In this document: positions 2,943-34,867 of the stretch, piece after piece
How the letters are laid out: each line of letters opens with the position of its first letter
How positions within the stretch are numbered: the stretch's first letter is position 1
NCBI RefSeq assembly: GCF_004010195.1
Contig: NC_057752.1
Location: forward strand, 14,255,474-14,290,893
Direction: 5' to 3'
Source of the DNA: Chiloscyllium plagiosum
Lineage: Eukaryota
Length of the DNA: 35,420 bases
The notes under the pieces: model-generated
What the model was told of the DNA's origin: nothing
Databases searched by the model: none
What the model saw: only the letters and a program-made list of their open reading frames with translations
Translations under genes and position numbers: made by a program

Positions 2943-3207
2943 AGTCGAGAGTGTGGTGCTGGAAAAGCACAGCAGGTCAGGCAGCAGGAGAATCGATGTT
3001 TCGGACAGAAGCCCTTCATAAGGAATGCCACTCACCGGAACACAGATGACTACATCGGCAACGTCACTTCTGCCATCATTCCTGATGAAAGGCTTATGCC
3101 CGAAACATCGATTTTCCTGCTCCTCGGATGCTGCCTGACCCGCTGTGCTTTTCCAGCAACACACTCTCCACTCTGATCTCCAGCATCTGCAGCCCTCACT
3201 TTCTCCA
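2943..3207. mobile_element. Palindromic Penelope-derived element, family A (inverted pseudo-LTRs)
   Basis: Arms about 2943-3027 and 3077-3207 are reverse complements; degenerate TSD ccttgacaaatgagaag (2926-2942) / ccctgataaatgacaag (3208-3224). Confidence 0.8.
3082..3109 (+). ncRNA. Minimal hammerhead ribozyme motif, family A, degenerate
   Basis: CTGATGA-a-aggc-ttat-gccc-GAAA-c-atc; one helix II mismatch and ACGT changed to ACAT. Confidence 0.55.
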
Positions 3208-3980
3208 CCCTGATAAATGACAAGTAATATTCACACCTCACAAATGCAAGGCTATGACCATCTCCAATGAGGACAATCTAACCACTGCCCCTTGACATTC
3301 AATGGTGTTACCATCACGGAATCCCCCACTATCAACATCCTCTTACCATTGACCAGAAAATGAATTGGACTCACCATATGGATACAGTGGCTACAACAGC
3401 AGGTCCGAGGCTGCAGTGAGTAACTCCCCTCCTGACTCCCCAAAGCCTGTCCCACCATCTCTAACTCACAAGTCAGGAGGGTGATGGAATACTCCCCACT
3501 TGCCCCTGGATGGGGGCAGCTCCAACAACACTCAAGAAGCTCAACACAATTCAGGACAAAGCAGCCGCTTGATTGGCACCACATCCACAAACATCCACTC
3601 CCTCCCCCACCGACGCTCAGTAGCAGCAGTATGTACCATCTACAAGATGCACTGCAGGAATTCACCAAAGACCCTCAGACAGCACCTTCCAAACCCACCA
3701 CCACTTCCATCGAGAAGGATAAGGGCAGCAGATACATGGGAACACCACCCCCTACAAGTTCCCCTCCAAGCGGCTCACCATCCTGACTTGGAAATATATC
3801 GCCGTTCCTTCATTGTCACTGGGTCAAAATCCTGGAATTCCCTCCCTCAGGGCATTGTGGGTCAACCTACAGCACACGGACTGCAGCGGTTCAAGATGGC
3901 AGCTCACCCCCACCTTTTCAAGGGGGGCAACTAGGGACGGGGTAATAATCACTAGCAATTCCTGTGTCACGTGAACAAAT
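3208..3980 (+). mobile_element. Second LINE family (CR1/L2 group), RT C-terminus plus 3' tail
   Basis: RLIGTTSTNIHSLPHRRSVAAVCTIYKMH and SWNSLP motifs; near-identical copy at 33945-34570. Confidence 0.85.
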
Positions 3981-4231
3981 AGTTTTTTAAAAATATCAAT
4001 TGATGTTCGAATGCCGCCCGCTGTGATATTGGGATTTAAGTCTATGCCCATAAATTGTTAACCTGAGTTATTTGCCCACTGGCATTACCCTTGTGCCAGC
4101 TCTATCCAGAACATATGGTCAAACAGCAAAGAAACAACAAGGTCAGATCCACAAGGATGTGTGGGTGTTTCCTTCTCTTGAAAAGGGAAGGCTGAAGGAG
4201 GATCTTACAACACAAGATATCTCCATCAAGT

Positions 4232-4558
4232 GATTAGATTAGATTAGATTAGATTAGATTAGATTAGATTAATTACAGTGTGGAAACAGGCCCTTCGGCC
4301 CAAAAAGTCCACACCGACCCGCCGAAGCGTAACCCACCCAGACCCATTCCTCTACATTTACCCCTTCACCTAACACTACGGGCAATTTAGTATGGCCAAT
4401 TCACCTAACCTGCACATTTTTTGGATTGTGGGAGGAAACCGGAGCACCCGGAGGAAACCCACACAGACACAGGGAGAATGTGCAAACTCCACACAGAGAG
4501 TCACAGGTCTCAGGTGCTGTGAGGCAGCAGTGCTAACCACTGTGCCACCGTGCCGCCC
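4232..4558 (-). mobile_element. HE1-like tRNA-derived V-SINE with (TAATC)n tail
   Basis: Head gggcggcacggtggcacagtggttagcactg, core tgtggagtttgcacattctccc, CR1-derived tail, (GATTA)n on plus strand. Confidence 0.95.
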
Positions 4559-4559
4559 G

Positions 4560-4820
4560 CGATACGGGGAGACGGGGAGAATGTTTCCTCTTGGGAACAG
4601 CAGAACCAGAGGCCGTCAATAAAAGCGTCATTGACAAATCCCACCGGGAATTCAGAAGAACAATTTTCACCAGTGATTGGTTGCGGTGAATGGTAAAGAT
4701 GCATTTGATGGGAAACCAAAGGAGTTTGGGAGGTTTTTGTGGATTGGGTAAGATAAAAGAGGGAGAAGCAAAAACACCAGCATGGAGTGGTTTGGCCGCA
4801 TCATCTGTTTCTGTGTATGA
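4560..4820 (+). mobile_element. Old CR1 3' fragment (continues 4160-4230, split by the SINE)
   Basis: Diverged FSLEKGRLKEDL before the SINE and GRMFPLGNSRTRG after it. Confidence 0.5.
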
Positions 4821-5118
4821 CAGGATGGTAGAACCAAGGCTGGTCGATGGAGTTGGGATACAGTGTTCATATTGAATGGAGATAACAGGAAATTCTGAGG
4901 TAAAACATCAGAGGAATCGCTGATGTGAGAAGGGACTGGGCACTACCACCTTCTCCCTTATTCCTATGCCAGCAACAGTCTGCCTTAGACTAGCAGCCGT
5001 TGGTAATGCGGCTGGTCTCTGGCAGCCATGTTTATGGCCTGCTTTGCTCTTACTTTCTTGCAATCACTTGACAATCTTTCATTCTCAATGTCTCTATTGG
5101 ACTATAATCCCCAATAAA

Positions 5119-5555
5119 AGGTTTCACATATGAGGAACGTTTGAGGACTCTGGGACTACACTTGATGGAGTTTAGAAGGATGAGGGGGGATCGAACTTAC
5201 AGAATATTGAACGGCCTGGGCAGAGTGGATGTTGGAAAGATGCTTCCATTGGTAGGAGGGAAGAGGACCCAAGGGCACAGCCTTACAGTAGAGGGAAGAC
5301 CTTTTATATTGGAGATAAGGAGAAACGTCTTCAGCCAGACAGTGGGGAATCTATGGAATTCACTGCCACAGAAGGTTGCTGAGGCCAGGTCATTGAATAT
5401 ATTTAAGACTGAGATAGATAGGTTCTTGATTGCCAAGGGGATAAAAGGTTATGGGGATAAGGCAGCAAAATCGAGTTGAGAAACTAAGCCATGATGGAAT
5501 GGCGGAGCAGACTCAATAGGAGGAATGGCCTAATCTCTGCTCCTATGTCTTATGA
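5119..5555 (+). mobile_element. CR1 LINE 3' end
   Basis: ORF 5141-5479 (EFRRMRGD...WNSLPQKV...KGIKGYG) followed by 3'UTR. Confidence 0.9.
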
Positions 5556-5740
5556 GCATTGGCCAAGTCAAATGAGTCTTCAACCGGATTAATTTGCGCT
5601 CTGTCCTCCATCTGTAACCCAGCTCCGACAAGGAATATTCTTAAAAAAAAAGCCAAAGACGTGCAGAAATGTGAAACAGAAACAGAAATTGCTGGAGAAA
5701 CTCAGCAGGTCTGGCAGCATCTGTCGAGAGAGAAAGAGTT

Positions 5741-5770
5741 AATGTTTCAGGTCCAGTGAGCTATCTTCAG
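5741..5770 (-). ncRNA. Hammerhead motif, family C, degenerate
   Basis: agtt-CTGAAGA-tagctcactggacct-GAAA-c-att-aact; helix I agtt/aact pairs, helix II is damaged. Confidence 0.5.
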
Positions 5771-5805
5771 AACTGGTTGCGGCTGGGAAAATGTTGATAA
5801 ATATC

Positions 5806-6172
5806 ATAGAATCCCTACCATGTGGAAGCAAGCCAATCAGCCCATCGAGTCCATACTGACCCTCTCACCCTATCTCTGTAACCCCTGCATTTTCCCATGG
5901 CTAATCCACCTAGTCTGCACATCCCTGGGCACTATGGGGCAATTTAGCATGGCCAACCCACCCTAACCTGCACATCCCTGGGCACTATGGGACAATTTAG
6001 CATGGCCAATCCATCCTAACCTGCATATCATTGGACTGTGGGAGGAAACTGGAGCACCCAGAGGAAACCCACACAGACATGGGGAGAACATACAAACTCC
6101 ACACAGACAGGATCGAACCCGGGTCCCCGGCGCTGTGAGGCAGCAGTGCTAACCACTGAGCCACCGTGCCAC
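5806..6172 (-). mobile_element. HE1-like SINE with internal tandem duplication
   Basis: Head and core as in other copies; cacatccctgggcactatggg...catggccaa occurs twice (about 5918-6023). Confidence 0.9.
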
Positions 6173-6389
6173 CCCAGAGATGAACGATGGGTTGGGGGGA
6201 GGTGTAAGCGGTAAGTTAGAGATGGAGCCCAGGAGGAGACAACAGGAATCAGGCAGACATCGGAATGGGAAATGGTCGGTCTGGGAGAATCAGTCGCTGC
6301 CAATGGGGCCTATTCGTGACTGCCAGTGAGTGAAATGAGATTGGTGACTGTCATGGATACAGTTGCCTGACATTCAATGGTGGCACCAT

Positions 6390-7985
6390 GACCTGGTGGG
6401 GAATGGGAGATTCTCGCCCCATTCCCAGCTCATCATCCCCCATCCGCCTCCTCTTCACCATGGATATGCAATCCCTGGACACATCCATCCCCCGACAGGA
6501 TGGTCTCAGGACTCTCCGCTTCCTCCTGAATAAAGGCCCCGATTGTGCCTACCCACCACCAGCCTCCTCCACCTCGCCCTCAACACCTTCGCTTTTAACT
6601 CCTCTCATTTTCTTCAGGTCAGATGGGTGGCTGTGGGTACTCGCAATGGGCCCCAGTTCTTCCTGTCTCTTTGTGGGGCATGTGGAAGATTCCTTGTTCC
6701 AATCCTATTCCCCACCTACAACTCTTTCTCCGGTATATCAGTGATATCATCAGTGCTGCTTCCCTCGATCATCCGGAATTGGAGAAATTGATCAAGTTTG
6801 CATCCAATTTCCACCCCGCTCTCATCTGCACCATCTCTGCCTCCTCCCTTCCCTCCCTTGACATCCATGTTCCCATTTCTGGGGATAGGCCGGCCACCAA
6901 TATCCATTTCAAACCCATGGACTCCAACAGTTACCTTGACTATACATCCTCACACCCTGCTTCCTGTAAAGACTCTGTTCCATTCTTCCAGTTCCTCCAT
7001 CATCGCTGTTAGCAGACTTCTGAACGGCCCTCGCCTGTATTAGAGTTGATCTTTCTCTGCCCCTTCTCTGTAGCTGCAACACTGTATTCTGCATTCTGTT
7101 CTTTTATCCTGATACCTTATGCAAAGTATGATTCGTCTGACTAGGACGTAAAACAACATGTTTCACTGTATCTCGGTACATGTGGCAAGAATAAATCAAA
7201 TCAAATCAAAAATATCTAATCAAAAAAGTCTGTTTCACTGATGCCAACTTCAACAAGGGGAACCTCTGAAACGTCCACCTTCTTCCTCAGCCAAGGATTC
7301 CCCAGCACCAGAGCTGACAGGGCCCTCAGCCGGGTCTGACCCATCTCCTGCACTTCCTCCTCCACCCATCTCTTCCCTCCTGCAACAGTGATTGGGTGCC
7401 CCTTGTCCTTACCTACCGTCCCACCGACATCCACATTCAGAGGATCTTCAGCCACCATTTCCGCCACCTCCAGTGAGATGCTACCACCAGACAGGTATTC
7501 CCCTCCCCTCCCCTGCCTGCCTTCCGCAGAGACTGTTCCCTCCGGTCCACTCTACCTTCACTCCCAACGCCTCCCCTCCCCCACTGTGCCTTCCCCTGCA
7601 ACCACTGTAGGTGTAACACCTACCCACTGACTTCCTCCCTCCTCCGTATCCAAGGGCCCAAATCCACCCTCCAGGTGAGGCAGTGCACTTCCCACAATCT
7701 AGACTACTGCATTCACTGCTCACAATGTGCTCTCCTGTACGCTGGGGAAATGAAGCGTTGCCTGGGGAACCGGTTCGTAGAACACCGACGTTCTGTCCGC
7801 AATAAGAAACCGAGCTTCCAGTTACCTGCCACTTTAACACCCCACCCTGTTCCAGTGTCTCTGTCTCAGGCTTGCTGCAGTGCTCCAGTGAAGCTCCGTG
7901 CAAGCTGCAAGAACAGCACTTGCGTTTCCGCTCGGGAACCCTGCAATCTTCTGGACTCAATATCAAGTTCAGCAATTTTCAGGCT
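6390..7985 (+). mobile_element. Penelope-like retroelement ORF relic (reverse transcriptase plus GIY-YIG endonuclease), frameshifted
   Basis: LLFTMDMQSLDTSIP, HFLQVRWVAVGT (GxxMG), LFLRYISDI (YIDD), YLDYTSSHP; then CTSHNLDYCIHCSQCALLYAGEMKRCLGNRFVEH and EQHLRFRSGTLQSSGLN (GIY-YIG with Cys motif). Confidence 0.9.
7003..7225 (+). mobile_element. Rex1-type LINE 3' end inserted in the Penelope ORF
   Basis: AVSRLLN resembles the Rex1 ORF C-terminus; tail tttcactgtatctcggtacatgtggc, aataaa, (TCAAA)n. Confidence 0.65.
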
Positions 7986-7987
7986 TA

Positions 7988-8631
7988 CATAGAACCTGGA
8001 ACATTCCAGCGCAGTACAGGCCCTTCGACCCTCGATGTTGCACCGACCTGTGGAACCAATCTGAAGCCCATCTAACCTACACTATTCCACTTTCATCCAT
8101 ATGTCTATCCAATGACCATTTAAATGCCCTTAATGTTGGCGAGTCTACTACTGTTAGAGGCAGTGCATTCCACGCCCCTACTACTCTGAGTAAAGACGCT
8201 CCCTCTGACATCTGTCCTATATCTATCACCCCTCAGTTGAAAGCAACGTCCCCTTGTGCTAGCCATCGCCATCTGAGGAAAAAGGCTCTCCCTGCCCACC
8301 CTACCTAACCCTCTGATTATCTTATATGTCTCAATTAAGTCACCTCTCAACCTTCTTCTCTCTAACAAAAACAGCCTCAAGTCCCTCAGCCTTTCCTCGT
8401 AAGACCTTCCCTCCATACCAGGCAACATCCGAGTAAATCTCCTCTGCACCCTTTCCAAAGCTTCCACATCCTTCCTATAATGCGGTGACCAGGACTGTAC
8501 ACAATACTCCAAGTGCGGTCGCCCCAGCATTTTGTACAGCTGCAGCATGACCTGATGGTTCCAAACTCGATCCCTCTACCAATAAAAGCTAGCACACTGT
8601 ATGTCTCCTTAACAACCCTATCAACCTGGGT
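7988..8631 (-). mobile_element. CR1 LINE 3' part (continues at 9940-10205)
   Basis: ORF 8120-8548: LGRPHLEYCVQSWSP, LERVQRRFTRM. Confidence 0.92.
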
Positions 8632-8692
8632 TGAAAAGTGTGGTGTCGGAAAAGCACAGCAGGCCAGCCAGCATCCGAGGAGCAGGAGAATC

Positions 8693-8720
8693 GATGTTTC
8701 GGGCATAAGCCCTTCATCAG
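8693..8720 (-). ncRNA. Hammerhead motif, family A, core intact
   Basis: CTGATGA-a-gggc-ttat-gccc-GAAA-c-atc; only the helix III palindrome is altered (ACAT). Confidence 0.65.
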
Positions 8721-9826
8721 AACAGGAAGGCAGATTACTACCTAAATGGAATCAATTTAGGTAAAGGGGCAGTACAAAGATTAGATTAGATTAGATTAGA
8801 TTACCTACAGTGTGGAAACAGGCCCTTCGGCCCAACAAGTCCACACCGACCCGCCGAAGCGTATACCACCCAGACCCATACTCCTACACTTACCGCTTCA
8901 CCTAACACTACGGACAATTTAGCATGTTCAATTCACCTAACCTGCACATTTTTGGAGTGTGGGAGGAAACCGGAGCACCCGGAGGAAACCCACGCAGACA
9001 CGGGGAGAATGTGCAAACTCCACACAGTCAGTCGCCTGAGGCGGGAATTGAACCCGGGTCTCTGGCGCTGTGAGGCAGCAGTGCTAACCACTGTGCCACC
9101 GTGCCGCCAAAGAGATCTGGGTGTTCTTGTACACCAGTCAATGAAGGTAAGCATGCAGGTACAGCAGGTAGTGAAAAAGGCTAATAGCATGCTGGCCTTC
9201 ATAACAAGAGGGTTTGAGTATAGAATCAAAGAGGTTCTTCTGCAGCTGTACAGGGCCCTGGTGAGATCACACCTGGAGTATTGCGTGCAGTTCTGGTCTC
9301 CAAATTTGAGGAAAGACATTCTGGCTATTGAGGGAGTGCAACGTAGGTTCATGAGGTCAATTCCTGGAATGGCAGGATTACCTTACACTGAAAGACTGGA
9401 GCGGCTGGGCTTGTATACCCTTGAGTTTAGAAGACTGAGAGGGGATCTGATTGAGACATATAAGATTATTAAAGGATTGGACACTATAGAGGCAGGAAAC
9501 ATGTTTCCGCTGATGGGTGAGTCCCGAACCAGAGGACACAGCTTAAAAATACCGGGTAGACCATTTAGGACAGAGATGAGGAGAAACGTCTTCACCCAGA
9601 GAGTGGTGGCTGTGTGGAATGCTCTGCCCCAGAGGGTAGTGGAGGCCCAGTCTCTGGATTCATTTAAGAAAGAGATGGATAGAGCTCTCAAGGATAGTGG
9701 AAACAAGGGTTATGGAGATAAGGCAGGAACAGGATACTGATTAAGGATGATCAGCCATGATCATATTGAATGGTGGTGCAGGCTCGAAGGGCAGAATGGC
9801 CTACTCCTGCACCTATTGTCTATTGT
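8721..9826 (+). mobile_element. CR1 LINE 3' part, relatively young (about 210 codons open)
   Basis: 9108-9740 reads RDLGVLVHQS...LYRALVRSHLEYCVQFWSP...WNALP; 3'UTR ends ctattgtctattgt. Confidence 0.95.
8781..9107 (-). mobile_element. HE1-like SINE, full length
   Basis: tRNA-like head with A/B boxes, core, (GATTA)n; TSD caaaga at 8775-8780 and 9108-9113. Confidence 0.95.
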
Positions 9827-9939
9827 TTATTGCCCAAAACGTCGATTCTCCTGCTCCTTGGATGCTGCCTGGCCTGCTATACTTTTCCAGCACCACACTT
9901 TTCAACTCTGGTCTCCAGCATCTGCAGTCCTCACTTTTT

Positions 9940-10205
9940 CCTATCAACCTGGGTGGCAACTTCAGGGATCTATGCACATGGACACCGAGATCTCTCTGCT
10001 CATATACACTACCAAGAATCTTTCCAACAGCCCAGCACTCTTTATTCCTGTTGCTCCTTCCAAAGTGAATCACCTCACACTTTTCCACATTAAACTCCAT
10101 TTGCCACCTCTCAGCCCAGCTCTGCAGCTTATCTGTGTCTCTCTGGAACCTACAACACCCTTCAGCACTGTCCACAACTCCACCAACCTGACTGTCATCG
10201 GCAAA
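9940..10205 (-). mobile_element. CR1 LINE RT fragment
   Basis: LQSWAERWQMEFNVEKCEVIHFG...QRDLGVHVH. Confidence 0.9.
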
Positions 10206-10502
10206 TGCTTGAGCTTGAGCTCTCCAATGTCCTTACCCCAACCCCCACAAACCAAGCCTTGTTATCACATGAGCTGCTACCACATACAACCCATTGTCAG
10301 CCACTAATGGCCCCCATTAGCAGCTATTCATTCTCCCAGGCTGACCTTTACCTTCTCCTTTGTCTGATTTTCTCTCTCTCTGGGCTCTATCCCCACCTTT
10401 CGTTTACTCCTCCACCTCCCCCCATCCCATCTTCAGTACATGTCAACTCTTAAGTAGCTACCGTCGGTTCTGAGGAAGGGTTACTGGATCTGAGACGTTA
10501 AT
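10206..10502 (+). mobile_element. Penelope family C 3' region ending in a hammerhead relic (10470-10499)
   Basis: gtt-CTGAGGA-a-gggtt-actg-gatct-GAGA-cgtt-aa; homologous to 5672-6330 on the minus strand. Confidence 0.65.
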
Positions 10503-10624
10503 ATATACTGTTCATCCTCAAGCCAATTCATGGGAACTGGCATGACCACCTTATTCTCGGCCTGGCGTAGGCTGCCTCAAACCAACCATTCATGGCAAGG
10601 GCCTTCCCTTCAAATGCATCATAC

Positions 10625-10705
10625 TCACTCTCTCACGCACACACACACACATACTCACTCACACACACACACAGACACACACACACGCACACTCACTCAC
10701 AAACA
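10625..10705. repeat. Imperfect (CA)n microsatellite
   Basis: Seen directly in the sequence. Confidence 0.95.
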
Positions 10706-11123
10706 CTTATAACTCCAACCCCACACCCCCACATAAGTTTATGGGTTGAATTTGTACTTGCAGAATTATATTTTATTTTGCTCAAAAACTGCATGTAAGA
10801 TCCATGTAATATTCTGTAAATCCGTTTTTAGATTAGAATCAGTCTAAACATTGTGGCACAGATAGTCTTACACAGGGCACCTCACTCCTTAAATGCATTA
10901 TCAGGGCCGACATGACACCAATTGTTAAAGTTCACTTGAGAATGTAACTTCAAAAAAGTTCTGCAATTTACAAATGAAAGAATTGAAACCAACATGTTCA
11001 TTCTAAAAGATGAGAGACTTAACAAAACAATCCAGGTCTTTTTTAATATATAATTTTAGTTAAATCACACTGCAACCTTTTGCTATAAGTTCTGTGTCTT
11101 ACAATCTTATACACCACAACCAC

Positions 11124-11152
11124 CTGATGAAGGAGCAGCACTCCGAAAGCTA
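11124..11152 (+). ncRNA. Minimal hammerhead ribozyme motif, family B, core intact
   Basis: cac-CTGATGA-a-ggag-cagca-ctcc-GAAA-gc-ta-gt; helix III palindrome AGCT, cleavage triplet CUA. Confidence 0.7.
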
Positions 11153-11327
11153 GTACTTCCAAATAAACCTGTTGACCTATAACCTGATGTTATGTGATTT
11201 TTAACTTTGTACACCCCAGTCCAATATTGGTACCTCCAAATATTGGTTATCAAGAATTGTCTTACCTTAGAAAATATTGTGCATCCACTACGTTCTAAGG
11301 AGCAGAATTGCAAAAATCTCATCTCTG

Positions 11328-15264: not shown

Positions 15265-15812
15265 ATAGAAAATAAGGGTAAGTCCAGGCCGTTCAGCCCT
15301 GCTCTGCCACTCGTGGCTGATAAACTCTGTCCCATGTTCCCGCTTTCTCCCCCATGCCCTTTGATTCCTTTCGCCCTAAGAACTCTATCTAACTTCTTTT
15401 TAGAAACATTCAATGTTTTATCCACAACCCCTTTCTGTGGGCAGAGAATTCCACAGGATCCCCACTCTCTGGATGAAGACATTTCTCCTCAGCTCAGTCC
15501 GAAATGGCCTACCCTGTACCCTTAGACTTGAGGGAAAAAGTGAAGATTGCAGATGCTGGAGATCAGAGCTGAAAATGTGTTGCTGGAAAAGCGCAGCAGG
15601 TCAGGCAGCATCCAAGGAGCAGGAGAATCGATGTTTTGGGCATGAGCCCTTCTTCCTGAAGAAGGCCTCATGCCTGAAACATCGATTCTCCTGCTCCTTG
15701 GATGCTGCCTGACCTGCTGCGCTTTCCCAGCAACACATTTTCAGCCCTTAGACTTGAGCCCCAGTTCTGGGCTCCCTCACCAGCAGGAACATCCGTCCTG
15801 TGTTAACCCTGT
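15265..15812 (-). mobile_element. CR1 3' fragment interrupted by a Penelope palindrome
   Basis: LDRVLRAKGIKGHG and a CR1-type 3'UTR. Confidence 0.85.
15533..15744. mobile_element. Palindromic Penelope family A element with almost no spacer
   Basis: About 90 bp inverted arms centred near 15656; exact 14 bp TSD cccttagacttgag at 15519-15532 and 15745-15758; hammerhead relic at 15656-15683. Confidence 0.9.
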
Positions 15813-15816
15813 CTCA

Positions 15817-18337: not shown

Positions 18338-18555
18338 CAACTGTTTTTCTTCAGCAGTGTTGGATTTCCACAGATCCTGATTGGTTTGTGGACCTTTGGC
18401 CTGGAGACCATCCCTGAACACCAGTTGGTAGCTGAAGCAAGAGTTTCTCCAACCACATGCTATAATCAGAAAGAACCATAATAAGTGCCTGAAACTTGTG
18501 TGGCAGAACTCACCCAGCCCTGATGATGACTTTACGGGTCTTACTCTGCACAATG

Positions 18556-18770
18556 AGAGAAAGTGAGGGCTGCAGATGCTGGAGAGTCAGATTCGAAAAA
18601 GTGTGGTGCTGGAAAAGCACAGCAGGTCAGGCAGCATCCGAGGAGCAGGAGAATCAGTGTTTTGGGCATAGGCCCTTCATCAGGAATGTGGGGGTGGAGG
18701 AGCAGGGGGCTGAGAGATAAATAGGAGGGGGAGGGGGCTGGGGGGTGGGGGGGTGAGGGAAGGTAGCTGG
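18556..18770 (-). mobile_element. Penelope family A terminal repeat with inactivated hammerhead (18656-18683)
   Basis: CTGATGA-a-gggc-ctat-gccc-AAAA; preceded on the minus strand by a pyrimidine-rich 3'UTR. Confidence 0.8.
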
Positions 18771-24162: not shown

Positions 24163-24262
24163 ATTCCTGAAGAAGGGCTCATGCCCGAAACGTCGATTCT
24201 CCTGCTCCTTGGATGCTGCCTGACCTGCTGCGCTTTTCCAGCAACACATTTTCAGCTCTGAT
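24163..24262 (+). mobile_element. Penelope family A solo terminal repeat
   Basis: Near-identical to the arms of 15533-15744; starts at the hammerhead. Confidence 0.85.
24167..24194 (+). ncRNA. Minimal type-I hammerhead ribozyme motif, family A, fully intact core
   Basis: CTGAAGA-a-gggc-tcat-gccc-GAAA-c-GTC; ACGT palindrome at helix III, GUC cleavage triplet; helix I weak (attc/gatt). Confidence 0.75.
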
Positions 24263-26595: not shown

Positions 26596-27504
26596 TATAC
26601 ACCTAGTTACCTCCTCAAAAAGTTCAATCAAGTTTGTTCGACATGATCTCCTGCTGACAAAGTCATACTGACTAGCTTTGCCTCTCCAAGCCAAGATTAA
26701 TTCTGTCTTTTCGAAGTTTTTTCTCATTGTTTAACTAGCACTGAGGTTAGACTCACTAGTTTGTAGTTTCCTGGTTTATTCCTAACATCCTTCTTAAATA
26801 TCAGTACCATAAAAGCAGTCCTCCAGTCCTCTGGCACCTCTCCTGTGGCCAGAGAGGATTTGAAAAAAATGTCTGAGCCCCTGCAGTCTCCTCTCTTACC
26901 TCCTGCAGCACCCTGGGATACATCTCAGCTGGCCCTCGGGTATTTATCCACCACCAGCTCCAACCACTAAAAACTGCCCCCCACCCCACAACAATGCTAA
27001 TTTGTTCAAGTATATTACAGGCCTATTCCCAATCTCCAGACCAATATCATCCTTATCTACATCACCTACATCTTGCATGCACAGAATGCCACGTTAGTCC
27101 CTCAAGGGCCCTACTCTTTCCTTGGATATACTCTTGCAACTAATATACTTAGAAAATGCCTTTGGAGTTTCTTTCACTTTACTCACCAGTGATTTTTTTT
27201 AATGCCCTCTAATTTCTTCTTTGAGTATCTTTCCACACGTCTCTAAGAGTTCTGGTGTTCTGAGATGTTGGTCTCTACCATAAACTTCTACCCATTCCTG
27301 TAACTCCTTTGACACCCAGGGTTTTCTGGAATTGTTGGTCCCTCCCTTCATCTTTAGAGAAACACATTGGCCCTGTGCTCTCAATACCACCCTTTCGAGT
27401 CTCTCCCACTGCTCTAATGTGGATTTCCCTGCAAGTAGCTGTCCACATTGGCCAATTCTTAGCTTATATTAAAGTCAACCTTCTCCCTTATTTCGACCTT
27501 TACA

Positions 27505-27628
27505 GTCCTGATGAAGGACTTATGCCCAAAACGTCGATTTTCCTGCTTCTCAGATGCTGCCTGACTGGCTGCGCTTTTCCAGCAACTCAGTTTCGACTCT
27601 GATCTCCAGCATCTGTGGTTGTCACTTC
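27505..27628 (+). mobile_element. Penelope family A terminal repeat with inactivated hammerhead (27508-27535)
   Basis: CTGATGA-a-ggac-ttat-gccc-AAAA-cgtc. Confidence 0.8.
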
Positions 27629-28101
27629 CGCTTTTAACATCCTGTCTATTTTTATCCTTTTCCACAATGAAGTTAAATCCAACTGACTTATGGTCACTAT
27701 TACTGAAATGCTCCCCAACTCTCATATCTGCCACTTGCTTGGCTTTGTTCCCTATAATTAGGTCCAACACTGCCCCTTTTGTGGGCCAGGGTTTATCATC
27801 CTTGCTGCCACTTCCTCTGGAATAGCAAGGCACAGTGTTGGCAGAGACCGTGAGTGTCCCGAGAACTATGCAACCGCTTGGGGTAAGGGTAACACTGACT
27901 TAGAGAAGGGTGGCAGATAGGAAGATGGCTAAGATGTCTGGCTTGGTGTTTAAACAGCGATAAGTTTCGGAGTGTGCACCTGCATGTGTCAGGGAGTACC
28001 AGCTGTGCCATCTATGTGCCTTGGGAATCATTAAGTTTGTGGATACAGTCCGATTATGTGCAGGGTAACACCAGACCGGGCACACAGCTGGGGTTCAAAG
28101 G

Positions 28102-28601
28102 NNNNNNNNNNNNNNNNNNNNNNNNNNNNNNNNNNNNNNNNNNNNNNNNNNNNNNNNNNNNNNNNNNNNNNNNNNNNNNNNNNNNNNNNNNNNNNNNNNN
28201 NNNNNNNNNNNNNNNNNNNNNNNNNNNNNNNNNNNNNNNNNNNNNNNNNNNNNNNNNNNNNNNNNNNNNNNNNNNNNNNNNNNNNNNNNNNNNNNNNNNN
28301 NNNNNNNNNNNNNNNNNNNNNNNNNNNNNNNNNNNNNNNNNNNNNNNNNNNNNNNNNNNNNNNNNNNNNNNNNNNNNNNNNNNNNNNNNNNNNNNNNNNN
28401 NNNNNNNNNNNNNNNNNNNNNNNNNNNNNNNNNNNNNNNNNNNNNNNNNNNNNNNNNNNNNNNNNNNNNNNNNNNNNNNNNNNNNNNNNNNNNNNNNNNN
28501 NNNNNNNNNNNNNNNNNNNNNNNNNNNNNNNNNNNNNNNNNNNNNNNNNNNNNNNNNNNNNNNNNNNNNNNNNNNNNNNNNNNNNNNNNNNNNNNNNNNN
28601 N
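28102..28601. other. Assembly gap (500 N)
   Basis: Run of N. Confidence 1.
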
Positions 28602-28674
28602 TTCTCCAGCTCTGGGGAAAGAGTGGCCTGAACTGGGTAGTACTGTCAAAGTCCCGGCAGAGGGCTGAATGACC

Positions 28675-28850
28675 TCCTGTCGCGTTGTACGAATGGCTGG
28701 GAGGAAACCACTTCTCCTTCGATGCCGCCAGCTTCCAAACATTCCCGTCTCTGCCCGCGCCACTTCCGCCCGGTAACAGGAAAGGTCGACTCGTTGGGGA
28801 AAGGGAAGTGGTCACACTTCCAAATATGCTGTCCCCCCCCCCCCCCCCAA
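28675..28850. promoter_or_regulatory. Candidate CpG-rich promoter edge
   Basis: Local CpG density; ETS-like ccacttccg (28760-28768), gggaagtgg and cacttcc; adjacent to the gap. Confidence 0.4.
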
Positions 28851-28979
28851 CCCCCAACCACACCAGCTCCACTTTCGAACCGATGGGTCCCAAGTGCCAC
28901 ACAGTCTCTTACAATAATGCAAACACACATTGGCATTTTGAGGCAAAAGTGAGATTTCTTACCTGCATCGCTAAGGAAC

Positions 28980-29142
28980 ACTATAATGTCAAGACCTTCA
29001 TTCCTCTATTTTTGTACCTAATCTATATTTGTGCCAAAGATTTGCAATGAGGTCCTTTGTCCTGAAGATGGCACTGTGTATGGGGACCTTTCACTGTACT
29101 CCTGAGTACAGGTGACAATGAAACAAAATTCTAATTCTAACT
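28980..29142 (+). mobile_element. Element ending in a Rex1-type tail
   Basis: tttcactgtactcctgagtacaggtgacaat followed by (attcta)n; 5' boundary uncertain. Confidence 0.55.
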
Positions 29143-29162
29143 CTGTCCCAACGACAGCTTGG

Positions 29163-29350
29163 CGAGAGTGTGGTGCTGGAAAAACACAGCCGGTCAGGCA
29201 GCATCTGAGGAGCAGGAGAGTTGACGTTTCGGGCAAAAGCCCGAATGATGAAACGTCGCTTCTCCTGCTCCTCGGATGCCGCCCGACCTGCTGTGCTTTG
29301 TCAGCACCACACTCTCGACTCTGACCTCCAGCGTCTGCAGTCCTCACTGC
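29163..29350. mobile_element. Palindromic Penelope family A element, centre deleted
   Basis: Inverted arms 29163-29242 and 29250-29350; both lack CTGANGA. Confidence 0.85.
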
Positions 29351-29594
29351 CTCCAACTGCACATTGTGCCACACTTCAGCAGCTCGGCCCCTCAGCTTCC
29401 CACGACAGCGGCTGCTTGCATTTACGTAGTGCCTTCAGAACAGTAAGGAGCTGCCGCAGCCGTTTCACAGGGGCTTTGTGTGACACTGAGCCACCTGAGG
29501 TGAAACGAGATTACCATTAAGATACAGAATTTCGTAGGACAGCATGTCCGACAACCAAGCAGAGAGGAGGCTCTGTTGGACTTGGTATTGTGCA

Positions 29595-29910
29595 ATAAGA
29601 CCCACACCATTCGGCCCATCGAGTCTGCTCCATCTGTCAATGAGGTCACGGCTGGTCTGATCATCCCCAACTCCACTCTCCTGCCTTTTCCCCATCACCC
29701 CTCCATTCCCCTTCCTGATTAAACATCTCTCTGTCTCAGCCACTGACCCAGCCCCGGACAGCCCTCTGTGGGAAAGAATTCCACAGACTCACTCCCCTCT
29801 GAGGGAAGAAATTCCTCCTCATCTCTGTCTGCAATGGGTGACCCCTTATTCTGGGATTGTACCCTCTGGTCCTAGACTCTCTCCCACAAGGGGAAACAAC
29901 CTCTCCACAT
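29595..29910 (-). mobile_element. CR1 3' end, next to a plus-strand endonuclease scrap (about 29525-29597)
   Basis: CR1-type 3'UTR; upstream plus strand reads QHVRQPSREEALLDLVLCN. Confidence 0.8.
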
Positions 29911-30054
29911 CAGAAAGAGAATTTTGGAATTGAGAGGTTGCCGGACTGATAGCCAATACAGGTCAGTGAACTGGGCCATGAGATCAAAATGGCAGAAAAT
30001 GCATGATGGGAGACTGGCCAGAAGCATAATGGAACTGTCAAGTTGGTTATACCA

Positions 30055-30672
30055 ATCTTAGCAGGATTTATACACTTAATGGTAAGGTCCGAGGGAGTGT
30101 TGCTGAACAAAGAGACCTTGGAGTGCAGGTTCATAGGTCCTTGAAAGTGGAGTCGCAGGTAGATAGGATAATGAAGGAGGCGTTTGGTATGCTTTCCTTT
30201 ATTGGTCAGAGTATTGAGTACAGGAGTTGAGAGGTCATGTTGCGGCTGTACAGGACGTTGGTTAGGCCACTGTTGGAATATTGTGTGCAATTCTGGTCTC
30301 CTTCCTATCGGAAAGATGTTGTGAAACCTGAAAGGGTTCAGAAAAGTTTTCCCCTGGGGTCGGGGAGTCCAGAACTAGAGGGGCATAGGTTTAGGGTGAG
30401 AGGGGAAAGATTTAAAAGGGACCTAAGGGGCAACATTTTCACGCAGAGGGTGGTACGTGTATGGAATGAGCTGCCAGAGGAAGTGGTGGAGGCTGGTACA
30501 ATTACAACATTTAAAAGGCATCTGGGTGGGTACATGAATAGGAAGGGTTTAGAGGGATTAGGGGCCCACATGCTGGCAAATGCAACTAGATTAATTTAGG
30601 ATATCTGGTCAGCATGGACGAGTTGGACTGAACGGTCTGTTTCAATGCTGTACATCTCCAGGACTCCATGAC
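30055..30672 (+). mobile_element. CR1 3' part with internal deletion near 30345
   Basis: LVRPLLEYCVQFWSP...ERVQK joined directly to FPLGSG...FRVRGERF. Confidence 0.92.
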
Positions 30673-31869
30673 ACTTAAGTCGAAAGGGGGTTAAAGCATG
30701 GATGAGGGTTTCAGTTGCTGCGAAGAGGAGACAGGCATGGGCATTAATGATGACAAATAATCTCGAAGGCCTTTTGAGAAAAAGCCAAATCTGTGTCCTT
30801 TGAAGCTAAGTGGACCCTGTGAAGCTCTCTTGTACCTGAGTGTAGAATCTCCGCACCTCATACTCTGCCGATCATAGAGCAAGCACCTCCTTTAACTGCG
30901 ATGACTCAAAACTGGCAAGGAACGAGGAAAGGAAAGTTGAAATGATCCTTCTTGTGAGTCATTCCTGTCAGGAAAGGTTTGAGGTCATGTTTAAAAGCTT
31001 AACCAACAACTGAATGGGTATAGCATAATGAAAGGTATATCATTCATATATTAATGTCATTTTTGGAATTTTGGGTGGGTATCAATTATTTCTGTGAAGA
31101 TTTGCTTCTTTTAAGGTCAGATAGTTCTTCTGGAACAGTGATTAAATCTAGTCTCTTGCCAGAAAGCATTGTCTGTCTCCCCCTGTGCCGTTAATGGAAA
31201 GTTGTTTGTATTGTTGGATTTATAACAGGTAGGGTAAACAGGCAAGGCCATTAGCTTTGCTTTTTAAGGTTCAGGTTTGGGTAAGTTTTGTCATCCAGTA
31301 CAGATGACACCAGAGCTGAGTTCAGAAGCTGGTTTAGTCGCTCAGTTGAAGTTTAAGAAACTTCCAAACCAGGACATTGGAACTCAGAAAGTTTAGGCCT
31401 GTCAGATTTGTGGAAACGTTCACCTTGGCAGATTTGGAAAGGACTCATTGACCGTCTGGAACAGACATGATGGGCTGAAGGGTCTCTTTCCATGTACTAA
31501 CTCGATGCTCCTGTGACTTGTCACCGCAGTCCAGCGCAAAGAAGCTTTCAGGAGTCTGTTAAATAGAAATTTTAAAAATTGAGGTAAGGGGACAATTTCT
31601 CTGAGCTTGGATAATGGAAGCGGGTTGGAACATCACGTGCTGTGTGATTATTATAATCGTCTTCTAAAGTATTTGTTTTTAAATATATTTTGTATAATAC
31701 ACTTCTGCTCTGTAGTTAAAGACATAGCTATGAAGCTGGAGAAATTGTTCTTCTCTCTGGAAGCAGAGATGGTGCATTGGAGGAGTCCCTGACAGAAATG
31801 AACATCAAGGGATACAGTGGTGGAATTGGACTCAATGGGGGAATGGCCTCTTTCTTCACCCTCAGGACT

Positions 31870-32260
31870 TTGAATAAATGATTTATTTGTAGTATGTATC
31901 GTGGGAGAAACAGTGAAAAGTGTTCTGTCGCTACAATCCGGCACCATTTGGAGGAATAAAAAAGAAAGCACTCAAACAGAGCTCATCTTCATCAGCTGGG
32001 GTCCCAAATACAGCTCTGGGATTTTTGCGAGGCCTGCGCTCCAGGCCTCCCACCATCAGGAGTCCTCGTTCCTTCATCCTCATCACCAGTTCCAGGGGTT
32101 CACGCCTCAGGCCTACAAAGCCAGGAGTCCCCGCTCCTGTCACCGCCAACGCCGTCCCAGCCTCCCCGCGAAGGTGAAGAAAAGACAGAAAAAAAGGCGA
32201 GAAGAAAGGATATGGCCGGCCTTGAGCGATGGGCCTACTGTGCCAGTGCTGCCATCTTGA
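31870..32260 (-). mobile_element. Non-autonomous element with caagatggc head and Rex1-type tail
   Basis: Minus strand begins caagatggcagc, has a GC-rich body, and ends acacttttcactgt...gatacat...aataaatcatttattca. Confidence 0.55.
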
Positions 32261-32319
32261 ATAGCCGGGCCCACTGTCCCCTCCGCTCTGCAGGCCTTTG
32301 CGATTGAACCAACCGAAAG

Positions 32320-32400
32320 AGGTTAGTCACCGCGTTGTTGCTAAGGGAGCTTGCTGTGTCCAAAATGGCTGCTGCATTGATCACATGACAGCAGAGACTG
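32320..32400 (+). promoter_or_regulatory. Candidate promoter motif cluster
   Basis: RFX-like gttgctaaggga (32337), YY1-like caaaatggctg (32361) and E/M-box tcacatgac (32381) within about 55 bp. Confidence 0.45.
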
Positions 32401-32944
32401 CCACTTCTCCAGGCCTTCACTGAAGCTGGGAAAGGTGTTGGTGGGGGGGGGGGGGGGGGGCGCCATACGAATGTAAATCTTTCCATTCACGTTTGCGAAA
32501 CAGCAATGCTCTGACCGACCATTGTTGGTTTGTATGCTGTTCAGTTATTTCAATCCAGTTTGTGTAAAATGGATCATTTAACTGCTCAGTCAGAAGGATT
32601 CATCTGAAGACTGCTCTGTTACACAAGGGCTAATAGGGGTGATGCATATTATCAACATAGCACTCAACTTGCATTTTCTTGTTACACGCTTGAAATTGAC
32701 ATGATCTTGGGAAGGAAAATCGACCTGGGCTTTTTTTTTTTCTGATGAGCTTTAACCCTTCATGTCATGTTTACCAGAGAGCTCCGCTTGTGTATTTTTA
32801 TCCCTTGGTAACATTATTTCCCTTTCCTTTGCATTTCTAAAGTCCTAGTGGAGGGCTGTGTGCATGTACAAAGACTTTGCCCAATTGACTGTACCTCATG
32901 TGTGAGTGTCGATCGTCAGCTCAGCTTCAAATGTCTTGAGCCAT

Positions 32945-33855
32945 AACTTTGAGTGTAGGAGTATGGGACGTCATGTTGAGGTTGTACAGGACATTGGTGA
33001 GGTCTCGTCTGGAGAACTGTGTCCAGTTCTGGTCGTCCTGTTACAGGGTTCAGAAGAGATTGACCAGGATGTTGCCGGGAATGAAGGGTTTAAGTTAAGT
33101 TCTGGTCGTCCTGTTACAGGAAGGAGATTATTAAGCTGGAGAGGGTTCAGAAGAGATTTACCAGGATGTTGCTGGGAATGAAGGGTTTAAGTTAAATGGA
33201 CAAGCTGGGATTTTTTTTCATTGCAGAGTAGGAAGTTGAGAGGTGACCCTGTAGTGGTTTACAAAATCATGAAGGGTATAAAGTGAATGGCAAGTGGGAG
33301 ATTACATTTTTAAGGTGAGGGTGGAAAGATTTAAAGAAGACATGAGGGGCAACGTTTTTACACAGAGAGTGGTTCCCGTGTGGAATGACCTTCCTGAGGA
33401 AGTGGTGGACGTGGGGACACTTACAATGTTTAAAAAGGTTAGATTCCCTACAGAGTGGAAACAGGCCCTTCGGCCCAACCAGTCCACACCGACCCTCTGA
33501 AGAGGAACCCACCCAGACCCATTCCCCTCTGACTAATGCACCTAACACTATAGGCAATTGAGCATGGCCAATTCACTCTAACCTGCACACCATTGGACTG
33601 TGGGAAGAAACCCACACAGACACGGGGAGAATGTGCAAACTCCATACAGACAGTTGCCCGAGGCTGGAATCGAACCCGGGACCCTGAGGCAGCAGTGCTA
33701 ACCACTGAGCCACCGAAAGACATTTAGATAAGTACATGAATAGGAAAGGTTCGGAGAGATAGGGGCCAGGAGCAGGCAGGTGGGACTAGATTAGTTTGGG
33801 ATTATGGTCGGCATGGACTGGTTGGGCCGAAGGGTCTGTTTCTGCGCTCTATGAC
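32945..33855 (+). mobile_element. CR1 3' part with internal duplication and SINE insertion
   Basis: FKVRVERFKEDMRGNVFTQRVVPVWNDLPEEVV; resumes after 33715. Confidence 0.9.
33438..33715 (-). mobile_element. HE1-like SINE
   Basis: Head, core and tail on the minus strand. Confidence 0.92.
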
Positions 33856-33944
33856 GAGATGACTTTATCATGGCCTTCCCTTCATTTTCCCCTGATTTAG
33901 CCCCATCCCTCATCTGATGAAAACAATCCGTGGCCACGTTCTGC

Positions 33945-34572
33945 CCGATCGAGGCAACGTTTAGGCTTGGCATATATGCAGCAAGTGAGATTCATGCCAT
34001 ACAAGTGCCAAGCGATGACAGAGAACCGAACAACCTCCCTTGGCATTACCTGCGTCAAATGTTCAACCCTCAACATCACAGGGATCATCAGAACCTGAAC
34101 TGGACCAGCCACATCAATATTTCAGCAACAAGACTCCACTATAGCTGGGCTTTCTGCAGCGAGTAACTCCCCTCCTGACTCCCCAAAATCCTGTCCCACC
34201 ATCTCCAAGGCACCAGTCAGGAGGGTGAGGGAATACTCCCCACTTGCCCCTGGATGGGGGCAGCTCCAACAACACTCAAGAAGCCTGACACCATCCAGGA
34301 CAAAGCAGTCCACTTGATTGGCCCCACATCCACAAACATCCACTCCCTCCCCCCCACCGACGCTCAGTAGCAGCAGTGTGTACCATCTACAAGATGCACT
34401 GCAGGAATTCACCAAAGACCCTCAGACAGCACCTTCCAAACCCACGACCACTTCCATCTAGAAGGACAAGGGCAGCAGGTACATGGGAACGTTACCAGCA
34501 GCAAATGTTACTCGAAAGCACGCAGACCTGACTTGGATCTGCATCATCGTTTGTTCAATGTTGCTTGGGGTT
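33945..34572 (+). mobile_element. Second LINE family, RT C-terminal region
   Basis: Near-identical to 3208-3800. Confidence 0.85.
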
Positions 34573-34636
34573 CAAAAGTATTGAGTCACTGAATGGTCCG
34601 AGCACAGCAAGAGGCTATTCAACTCATTGCAGCCAT

Positions 34637-34867
34637 GATGTGGAGGAGCCGGGGTTGGACTGGGGTGGACAAAGTTAAAAATCACACCACACCAGGTTCT
34701 AGTCCAACAGGTTTATTTGGAAGGACTAGCTTTCAGAGCGCTGCTCCTTCATCAGGTACCTCGTCACTCGCTGCTCCTCCGTCACTAGCTAGGAGGAGCA
34801 GCGCTCTGAAAGCTAGTGCTTCCAAATGAACCTGTTGGACTCGAACCTGGTACTGTGTGATTTTTAA
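34637..34867. mobile_element. Palindromic Penelope family B element
   Basis: Arms about 34676-34756 and 34794-34867 are inverted; about 40 nt extra tail on the left arm only. Confidence 0.8.
34727..34755 (-). ncRNA. Hammerhead motif, family B, core intact
   Basis: CTGATGA-a-ggagc-agc-gctct-GAAA-gc-ta; the first helix II pair is G-U. Confidence 0.65.

What the first reader, a model, noticed from the sequence alone, without database searches (positions are those of the whole stretch)
2995..34815. About 14 hammerhead motifs or relics from three Penelope families with covarying helices
Seen: family A (2995-, 3082+, 8693-, 9831+ partial, 15656+, 18656-, 24167+, 27508+, 29223 partial) has helix II gggc/gccc with loops ttat, tcat, ctat, tttt and ttct. 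Family B (11124+, 34727-, 34794+ partial) has ggag/ctcc. Family C (5741-, 10470+) has a damaged gggt(c)/gac(c)-type stem. All share CTGANGA...GAAA. The helix III palindrome switches from ACGT (A, C) to AGCT (B), a compensatory change that preserves self-complementarity. Helix I also switches (ac/gt in B, agtt/aact in C). Inference: the structure was under selection in the source elements, and this density suggests a very large genome-wide ribozyme population. I cannot tell whether these shark families have been described.
Basis: partly seen in the sequence, partly recalled or inferred. Interest (0 to 1): 0.8.

Follow-up and report, generated by a model that had tools for sequence, protein, structure and literature searches.

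The report
Cap-marked Penelope hammerhead stubs in shark
The motifs are real but are mostly decayed ends of a known kind of jumping gene (Penelope-like) carrying an already described tiny self-cutting RNA motif; they number an estimated million or more in this shark-type genome, and their left ends suggest that many were likely copied from the capped, uncut front end of the element's RNA.

Summary
Observation confirmed: 16 hammerhead-bearing termini (reader: 14) from about 10 insertions; only 3 keep a fully intact motif. They are pseudo-LTR ends of Penelope-like elements: families A and C follow an RT + GIY-YIG ORF (Neptune-type linker in A), B follows a GIY-YIG C-terminus. The motif is the published minimal type I hammerhead, palindromic helix III included (Cervera 2014). 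Helices covary between families (8 double changes, all Watson-Crick), but genomic copies decay neutrally. A 949-kb sample gives about 1.27 million termini genome-wide, about 157,000 intact; the window is typical.

Not found in print: 5' ends of copies pile up a few bases before the core, at an initiator-like A with a TATA-like box about 30 nt upstream, not at the cleavage site; in family A that A is preceded by excess G (1,804 vs 632 A, expected ratio 0.64), the mark of a reverse-transcribed cap. Likely mechanism: internally primed cDNA runs off the capped 5' end of uncut RNA. The G excess was not seen in C; no RNA data showed the start. The scan reached this reading before on other DNA of this genome.

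The parts
2937..3027 (-). Family A terminus, short tail; core damaged (C3-U4-U5); left arm of an inverted pair
3076..3206 (+). Family A terminus, long tail; core 3082-3105, predicted cut after 3109; G10.1 and G16.2 mutated; right arm of the pair
5660..5797 (-). Family C terminus; core 5745-5770, helix II damaged; probably the inverted arm of the C element at 6440-10501 (inferred)
6440..7986 (+). Broken RT + GIY-YIG coding remnant of a family C element, interrupted at about 7002-7230
   Evidence: colinear with C copies L069 and L081 at 69-79%; tblastn to P0001 E 1e-40 and 1e-32
8630..8720 (-). Family A terminus; core 8697-8720; G16.2 lost by CpG decay; left arm of a pair with 9837-9936
   Evidence: 15-bp target duplication at 8617 and 9940
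9831..9940 (+). Family A terminus starting inside helix II; no core
10213..10501 (+). 3' UTR and hammerhead (core at 10470, A13 mutated) of the family C element, cut off just after the cleavage site
10638..11241 (+). Family B 3' UTR with CA microsatellite, TATA-like TATAAG at 11084-11089, initiator-like A at 11116, intact hammerhead (core 11124-11148, predicted cut after 11152) and long tail
15533..15655 (-).
   Evidence: 14-bp target duplication at 15519 and 15745
15653..15748 (+). Family A terminus, short tail; core 15656-15679; helix II and G16.2 mutated
18551..18743 (-). Family A terminus with part of the natural 3' UTR; G12 lost
24163..24262 (+). Intact family A stub starting exactly at the initiator-like A (24163), preceded by G; core 24167-24190, predicted cut after 24194; short tail
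27503..27636 (+). Family A stub, long tail; G12 lost
29170..29354 (.). Inverted pair of family A termini joined inside helix II; neither has a core
34632..34757 (-). Family B terminus, intact motif (core 34731-34755), long tail; left arm of a pair
34794..34867 (+). Family B terminus starting at helix II, short tail; right arm of the pair

Best explanation
These are dispersed pseudo-LTR ends of three families of endonuclease-bearing Penelope-like retrotransposons, each carrying the known minimal type I hammerhead, and many are likely complete DNA copies of just the first 95-130 bases of the element's capped, uncut RNA. Shown: linkage to RT + GIY-YIG, two fixed 3' ends about 35 nt apart, a 5' pile-up just before the core, head-to-head pairs, neutral decay. 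Inferred: a Pol II promoter (TATA-like box, initiator) in the pLTR starts the RNA 4 nt (A, C) or 8 nt (B) before the core, so the hammerhead is the first 32-37 nt of the 5' UTR; the RT primes at a nick on one of two internal sites 95 or 128 nt downstream (as shown in vitro for an anole element), and when it uses the upstream pLTR it runs off the cap, often copying it as an extra G; two such cDNAs primed on the two ends of one break and joined by microhomology give the inverted pairs. The ribozyme would be under selection only in the source elements, cutting weakly, as a dimer or with protein help.
For: RT + GIY-YIG ORF ends about 180 nt before the A hammerhead in L091 and L094; C copies end RT-bearing loci and the window's own remnant; B follows a GIY-YIG C-terminus in L021. 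The tail continues into the ORF start, ATG about 165 nt after the core (956 exact junction matches). 3' ends: two peaks per family. 5' ends in the random sample: 65 of 112 A copies that reach the core stop within -11..+3 (hazard 5.6% per base against 0.6% further upstream), 25 of 28 C, 33 of 44 B within -20..+3. In 100 listed A copies none started between -11 and -17, 48 at -4 or -3 (by eye; first 30 confirmed by script). G precedes the -4 start in 15 of 22 against 11 of 57 at other starts (Fisher p 9e-5; 10 of 17 after dropping five doubtful rows, p 0.004). Genome-wide YG-ATTCC 1,804 vs YA-ATTCC 632, background ratio 0.64. TATA-like hexamer at -40/-38 in 22 of 31 B copies with initiator-like A at -8 in 25 of 31; at -33/-34 in 5 of 8 C copies. 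No sharp peak at the cleavage site. Inverted partner within 600 nt: 90 of 173 A, 50 of 70 B, 28 of 78 C. Core positions decay like non-core ones (3.9% vs 4.0%).
Against: The G excess was not seen in family C (before AGTT: 18 C, 7 A, 6 G, by eye) and is only suggestive in B (6 of 6 non-C bases are G, but about half are explained by the inverted partner). Of 11 solo YG copies with a visible target duplication the G was part of the target in 5, clearly extra in 1-2, unclear in 4-5, so target choice could contribute. About a quarter of the YG copies have palindromic or duplicated junctions that give G without a cap (corrected excess about 3.3-fold). Family A has TTTATC rather than a canonical TATA box. 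RNA reads showed no place where molecules begin (unsuited library). A mild excess of junctions at the cleavage site exists (23 of 80 over 3 positions, against 4.1 and 5.6 per position on either side), and one copy is joined to a U6-like 3' end exactly there, so some RNA is probably cut. D. virilis Penelope has a TATA-less internal promoter 46 nt + a 75-nt intron upstream of its hammerhead (PMC2377424, PMC4209133), a different layout.
Confidence: 0.7

Rival explanations
1. Same elements, but the 5' pile-up is an RT stall or template switch at the folded hammerhead (or protein bound to it) inside a longer RNA; the G comes from target preference and microhomology, not from a cap.
For: The boundary coincides with the 5' strand of helix I in all three families; the G is target-derived in 5 of 11 solo copies; no G excess in C; palindromic parts of the motif do serve as junctions (window 15533-15748, 29170-29354).
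Against: A stall would be expected on entering the structure from the 3' side, not after leaving it; G enrichment is specific to the -4 start and absent at -5, -3, -2, -1; TATA-like boxes lie 29-32 nt from the initiator-like A in B and C, whose spacing to the core differs.
Confidence: 0.17
2. The stubs are a separate non-autonomous (SINE-like or retrozyme-like) family that spreads from its own short master copies using the PLE enzyme.
For: Short copies outnumber ORF-bearing ones (only 16 of 173 A copies extend beyond -240); non-LTR retrozymes derived from pLTRs are reported, including in one chondrichthyan (bioRxiv 10.64898/2026.07.22.740005).
Against: Stub variants match the ends of ORF-bearing copies of the same subfamily; 5' flanks are not shared among stubs; a stub that begins at -4 lacks the upstream promoter; no tandem arrays in the window.
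Confidence: 0.08
3. The genomic copies themselves form a host-selected ribozyme population (for example cutting intronic RNA in trans as dimers).
For: About 157,000 intact motifs are estimated; reads carrying the motif exist on both strands.
Against: Core positions mutate at the rate of non-core positions, and catalytic G12 is lost in 12 of 88 copies by CpG decay; 0 of 81 sampled C copies and 3 of 16 window copies are intact.
Confidence: 0.03

Closest known systems
Minimal hammerheads (min-HHR) in the pLTRs of metazoan PLEs (Cervera and De la Pena 2014, PMC4209133; parts 1-2 of 4 read, supplements not seen)
   Same: Type I, CUGANGA...GAAA core, one extra base before helix II, G10.1-C11.1, palindromic 15.2-16.2 without loop 3, several families per genome with compensatory changes, mostly single or opposite-strand pairs from truncated PLEs.
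   Different: Counts there are about 4,000 (coelacanth) and 9,000 (Xenopus); here about 157,000 intact of about 1.27 million termini (different method). No shark is named in the parts read. No transcription start or cap mark is discussed.
PAc (Poseidon of Anolis carolinensis; Frangieh et al. 2024, PMC11167929; parts 1-2 of 4 read)
   Same: Two internal RT start sites that define a 30-40 nt tail; both DNA strands are cut and extended; hammerhead near the ORF start; uncut RNA is the main substrate in vitro and no RNA-seq reads end at the cut site.
   Different: PAc is Penelope/Poseidon clade with the ATG inside helix II; the A3 subfamily here has a Neptune-type linker and its ATG about 165 nt after the core. 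The paper does not map the RNA 5' end or explain short copies.
Neptune/Nematis-type EN+ PLEs (Craig et al. 2021, PMC8557442; passages read)
   Same: RT with DKG motif, C-terminal GIY-YIG with two cysteines in the core, CX2-5CxxC linker, partial tandems, inverted 5'-truncated copies, 30-40 bp tail.
   Different: 5' truncation is described as frequent, not as fixed at one site; clade placement here rests on the linker motif, no tree was built.
Untemplated 5' G of full-length L1 and SVA insertions (Hancks and Kazazian review, PMC4859970; passages read)
   Same: An extra G at the 5' junction read as reverse transcription of the m7G cap.
   Different: There it marks full-length LINE/SVA copies; here it would mark 95-130-nt copies made by internal priming near the 5' end.
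Non-LTR retrozymes (bioRxiv 10.64898/2026.07.22.740005; parts 1-3 of 5 read, supplements closed)
   Same: Type I hammerheads related to PLE pLTRs; reported in one chondrichthyan genome.
   Different: Retrozymes are head-to-tail tandem repeats of 51-972 bp; these copies are dispersed, single or head-to-head.

Membership tests
PLE minimal type I hammerhead (min-HHR) | Core CUGANGA, GAAA, UH cleavage site in type I order | tested here: met
   Present in the common variants of all three families; strict core in 95 of 339 sampled copies
PLE minimal type I hammerhead (min-HHR) | Unpaired base between 9 and 10.1, and G10.1-C11.1 pair | tested here: met
   A then G-C in all six representative copies
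PLE minimal type I hammerhead (min-HHR) | Helix III reduced to a palindrome at 15.2-16.2 | tested here: met
   CG in A and C, GC in B
PLE minimal type I hammerhead (min-HHR) | Short helix I (4-5 bp typical, 2 bp in D. virilis) | tested here: inconclusive
   4 bp in C and A2, 3 bp in B, 2 bp + U.U + 1 bp in the abundant A1 and A3
PLE minimal type I hammerhead (min-HHR) | Located in the pLTR of a PLE | tested here: met
   Follows the ORF and precedes the ORF start
PLE minimal type I hammerhead (min-HHR) | Self-cleavage (weak, dimeric or protein-assisted) | not testable with these tools
   No assay; indirect only: one U6-like 3' end joined at the predicted cut
EN+ Penelope-like elements | One ORF with PLE-type RT and C-terminal GIY-YIG | tested here: met
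   L091 and L094: RVT_1 above cut-off, GIY-YIG 21 bits (cut-off 22.6), DKG, YIDD and IYCxxCxxC..YIG motifs; for B only the EN C-terminus was seen
EN+ Penelope-like elements | Partial tandems, inverted 5'-truncated copies and an optional 30-40 bp tail | tested here: met
Neptune/Nematis clade | CX2-5CxxC linker between RT and EN | tested here: met
   C-x4-C-x2-C at residue 741 of P0001, family A; decayed in the window's C remnant; not seen for B
Neptune/Nematis clade | RT phylogeny with reference Neptune and Nematis sequences | not tested
   No named reference sequences were at hand
Non-LTR retrozymes | Head-to-tail tandem repeats with a hammerhead in each unit and no ORF | tested here: not met
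   Copies are dispersed, single or inverted, and linked to an ORF
Canonical hammerheads in Rfam | Match to an Rfam hammerhead model | tested here: not met
   No hammerhead match at E<=5 in the window

The most novel reading that the evidence does not exclude
The PLE hammerhead sits within 4-8 bases of the cap and works as a self-decapping switch: uncut, capped RNA is the template for insertion, while cut RNA (5'-OH) goes to another fate (translation, decay, or ligation such as to U6). The million stubs are then 'strong-stop'-like cDNAs that record the start site, the two priming sites and the two-ended mechanism that builds inverted pLTRs, so the long-open question of what the PLE hammerhead does can be read from the genome and tested with a 130-nt RNA.
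Probability: 0.35. Interest if true: 0.72.

Novelty: new member of a known kind. Interest (0 to 1): 0.48.

Why it matters
What could matter is the fossil record: the role of the PLE hammerhead is stated to be unclear (PMC8557442) and it is dispensable for insertion in vitro (PMC11167929). If the RNA starts at helix I and the stubs are cap-marked copies of uncut RNA, this gives in vivo support for internal priming on an unprocessed template, explains the inverted ends typical of PLEs, and recasts the ribozyme as a regulator at the cap rather than a processor of multimers.

Tried and rejected
Rfam: no hammerhead model matches. Pfam on the window's broken frames: 0 families for 3 frames; identity came from intact copies elsewhere in the genome. 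MAFFT alignment of nine real copies put helix II out of register between families, so pairs were counted by motif parsing instead and no covariation tool was run on it. Nearest-neighbour folding: the hammerhead fold equals the minimum for A2 and C, is 1-4 kcal above it for A1, A3, B1, B2, and the strand-swapped dimer is never the minimum; the model does not score the catalytic core, so this was not used. First local check for a cap G was uninformative (4 G of 12 non-C bases in solo A copies, some misclassified). L096 looked like pLTR-ORF-pLTR but its upstream hammerhead is a separate short copy. Sequencing runs: no listed holder is on record as RNA; single-cell poly(A) reads of run X19 lie on both strands, mostly run on into unrelated flanks, and show no common start or end; X20 gave 0 reads; no test of start site or cleavage. 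No RNA family at gathering score in 20 of the 30 loci with junctions near the cut site. Hammerheads from other species' elements were not obtained, so covariation rests on one genome. Lunse et al. 2017 could not be read; Repbase and Dfam could not be checked. Rejected: chance motifs; host-selected copies; retrozyme arrays; cleavage site as the main 5' boundary.
Full report
1. Observation. The window is repeat-rich animal DNA; the best named relatives of the element's protein are from elasmobranchs (Chiloscyllium punctatum 77%, Rhincodon 70%, Mobula 67%, Stegostoma 65%, Hypanus 61%; marine invertebrates about 50%), so 'shark-type' is reasonable. All 14 sites are present. Exact CTGANGA-N5-35-GAAA occurs 10 times against 4.4 by chance, 0 of 100 shuffles reaching 10. 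Profiles of the 55-62 nt after the cleavage site find 15 termini in the window; the truncated C copy at 10470 makes 16. Only 3 of 16 pass a strict descriptor. Several are arms of one insertion: 8630-9940 and 15533-15748 have 15- and 14-bp target duplications; 2937-3206, 29170-29354 and 34632-34867 are adjacent inverted pairs; the two C motifs probably flank one element. That makes about 10 insertions. Rfam has no hammerhead hit.

2. Abundance. Exact 30-35-place patterns give 49,591 (A), 2,261 (B) and 1,071 (C) matches in the 3.56-Gb genome, reversed controls 0. In 98 stretches of 10 kb taken at round coordinates on contigs C1-C45 (949,120 non-N bases, the two neighbours of the window left out) there are 188 A, 70 B and 81 C termini, reversed control 0: 357 per Mb (bootstrap 309-408), about 1.27 million if the small contigs are alike. 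42 of 339 are intact (31 A, 11 B, 0 C), about 157,000 genome-wide. The window (16 in 35 kb) is ordinary for this genome. An independent descriptor run on the first 38 stretches gave 28 hits against 0-1 in 10 shuffles.

3. What they belong to. Searching with the window's RT remnant gave 150 scored matches of 37,892 candidates. Of 20 loci fetched, L091 and L094 have N-free reading frames of 893 and 749 residues with RVT_1 above cut-off and GIY-YIG just below, ending about 180 nt before an A hammerhead; most other long frames were runs of N. [quoted passage not shown] C hammerheads end RT-bearing loci, and the window's 6440-7986 and 10213-10501 are colinear with them. B is preceded by a CA microsatellite and, in L021, a GIY-YIG C-terminus read by eye from the translation. 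For subfamily A3 the sequence after the tail runs into an ATG about 165 nt after the core (956 exact junction matches; 30 loci read), so the hammerhead lies both after the ORF and in the 5' UTR, as expected of a pLTR.

4. Structure and covariation. In six real copies standing for A1, A2, A3, B1, B2 and C: helix II pairs are all Watson-Crick (4 bp in A, 5 in B and C). Against family A, B changes both sides at 2.2-1.2, 2.3-1.3, 10.3-11.3, 10.4-11.4 and 15.2-16.2, and C at 2.1-1.1, 2.3-1.3 and 10.4-11.4; all 8 keep pairing (about 1 in 6,500 if a partner changed at random; my arithmetic, and the families were chosen by their cores). Breaks: U.U at 2.3-1.3 in A1 and A3, the most abundant variants, and a mismatch at 2.4-1.4 in B1 and B2. 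Within family A (88 ungapped sampled copies) non-CpG core positions differ from the majority at 34 of 880 (3.9%), downstream control positions at 96 of 1,408 (6.8%), or 46 of 1,144 (4.0%) after dropping three subfamily-variable positions; G12 is lost in 12 of 88 by CpG decay (both regions took part in picking the copies). So selection acted on source elements, not on copies. All these traits, including the palindrome, are in Cervera and De la Pena 2014 (PMC4209133, parts 1-2 of 4); a review (PMC6765202, passages) cites Lunse et al. for dimer cleavage, which I could not read.

5. Ends of the copies. 352 of 354 termini aligned to reference copies; 321 remained after dropping window copies and those at an edge or next to N. 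3' ends form two peaks (A about +90-94 and +125-128; B +82-85 and +120-123; C +95-97 and +120-125, counted from C3), the PLE tail that Frangieh et al. trace to two internal RT start sites (PMC11167929, parts 1-2 of 4). 5' ends pile up just before the core: 65 of 112 A copies that reach +4 stop in -11..+3, against 19 of 47 over the next 89 bases; C 25 of 28; B 33 of 44 in -20..+3. A listing of 100 of 20,833 A1 copies without the natural upstream bases gave apparent starts -10:1, -9:1, -8:2, -7:3, -6:7, -5:10, -4:22, -3:26, -2:9, -1:12, 0:7 and none from -11 to -17 (tally by eye; the first 30 agree with a script). At the cleavage site (+28) there is no such peak: of 100 of 5,407 copies with a break between +20 and +34 (by eye) 20 were internal deletions, gaps or mutated intact copies and were dropped; of 80, 23 fell in +27..+29 (7.7 per position), 29 in +20..+26 (4.1) and 28 in +30..+34 (5.6). 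Scaled by capture probability that is roughly 1,300 copies per position at the cut against 8,900 at -4/-3 (different anchors; rough).

6. Start site and cap. The boundary falls on an initiator-like A: TCATTCC in A and TCAGTTC in C (A at -4), TCCACA in B (A at -8; 25 of 31 copies). A TATA-like hexamer starts at -40/-38 in 22 of 31 B copies and at -33/-34 in 5 of 8 C copies, 29-32 nt from that A; A has TTTATC at -35 in 4 of 7 (the initiator and TATA consensus are recalled). G precedes the -4 start in 15 of 22 listed copies against 11 of 57 at -5, -3, -2, -1 (p 9e-5; 10 of 17 after dropping three palindromic junctions, one duplicate and one microhomology, p 0.004). Genome-wide, YG-ATTCC-core has 1,804 matches and YA-ATTCC-core 632, where the background YG/YA ratio is 0.64: 4.5-fold excess. 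In 40 YG and 20 YA loci read, 4 YG were palindromic junctions and about 4 partial duplications that give G without a cap; allowing for these leaves about 3.3-fold. In 11 solo YG copies with a visible duplication the G was in the target in 5, extra in 1-2, unclear in the rest; a cap-templated C on the cDNA would favour annealing to a target G, but target preference is not excluded. An extra 5' G is read as cap copying in L1 and SVA (PMC4859970, passages). Against: no G excess in C, weak evidence in B, and RNA reads gave no start.

7. Mechanism. Shown: PLE linkage, fixed 3' ends, 5' pile-up, G excess in A, inverted pairs (90 of 173 A, 50 of 70 B, 28 of 78 C), neutral decay. Inferred: transcription starts at helix I; RT primes internally on the upstream pLTR of uncut RNA and runs off the cap; cDNAs from both ends of a break join head to head. 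Some cutting probably occurs: in L241 a 27-nt match to the U6 3' end (Rfam 12.2 bits, E 2, far below the gathering score) stops at the base before G1.1. Self-cleavage can promote cap-independent translation in viral UTRs (PMC13725137, passages), a possible use of the cut form; untested here.

8. Known or new. The motif is a new member of a known kind. Searches for hammerhead + Penelope + shark, hammerhead ribozyme + Penelope-like, Penelope + promoter/start/initiator/pLTR, Penelope + elasmobranch/shark genome/Neptune, Penelope-like + strong-stop/capped/pLTR and bamboo shark + Penelope listed no paper describing these shark families or a cap-marked start at the hammerhead; the library lacks most subscription papers, and supplements of PMC4209133 and of the 2026 preprint (which reports retrozymes in one chondrichthyan; parts 1-3 of 5 read) were not seen and may list them. 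Penelope is noted as present in the whale shark (PMC8455134, one passage). D. virilis Penelope has a TATA-less internal promoter with an intron before the hammerhead (PMC2377424, passages). Earlier notes of this scan on other DNA of the genome (consulted after my tests) give the same capped-leader reading and report U6 fusions at the cut; they are not independent evidence.

9. Verdict. Observation confirmed; interpretation supported but largely published; the added value is the testable start-site and uncut-template signature. Interest 0.48.

Noticed in passing
L241:1615-1646 (-) (G000:C1): A 27-nt match to the 3' end of U6 snRNA ends exactly at the predicted hammerhead cut of an A3 copy that runs on into the ORF start; Rfam score far below threshold.
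   Followed up: partly
L218-L247: Many A3 copies read hammerhead/tail + 30-200 nt of ORF start, then jump to the 3' UTR + hammerhead + tail, suggesting frequent template switching that builds mini tandem pLTRs.
   Followed up: partly
listing (G000:C1): At least 5 of 100 listed copies have lost helix II exactly between the two GAA of the core, a recurrent microhomology deletion of the hairpin.
   Followed up: no
L036, L049, L175; listing: A further B-like subfamily seems to have helix I UCAC/GUGA (4 bp) and H17 = U.
   Followed up: no
L096:2871-4934 (-): The A3 ORF has an N-terminal domain followed by a long Thr/Pro/Ser-rich linker before the RT; 3,193 candidates for the N-terminal part in the genome, top hits 90-96% identical, so this subfamily is young.
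   Followed up: partly
L091:2383-5061 (-): The first 185 residues of this frame are a near-tandem repeat of about 39 residues; local duplication or assembly artefact.
   Followed up: no
window 10503-10640: A family B element appears to have inserted right at the cleavage-site end of the family C hammerhead at 10470.
   Followed up: partly
window 2124-2206: tRNA-like head of a SINE (weak tRNA-Sec match, 22 bits); the window also holds many copies of another SINE and of CR1/L2-type LINE ends (labels recalled).
   Followed up: no
window 28690-28830 and 32030-32470: Two CpG-rich, non-repeat-looking stretches that could be promoter or exon sequence.
   Followed up: no
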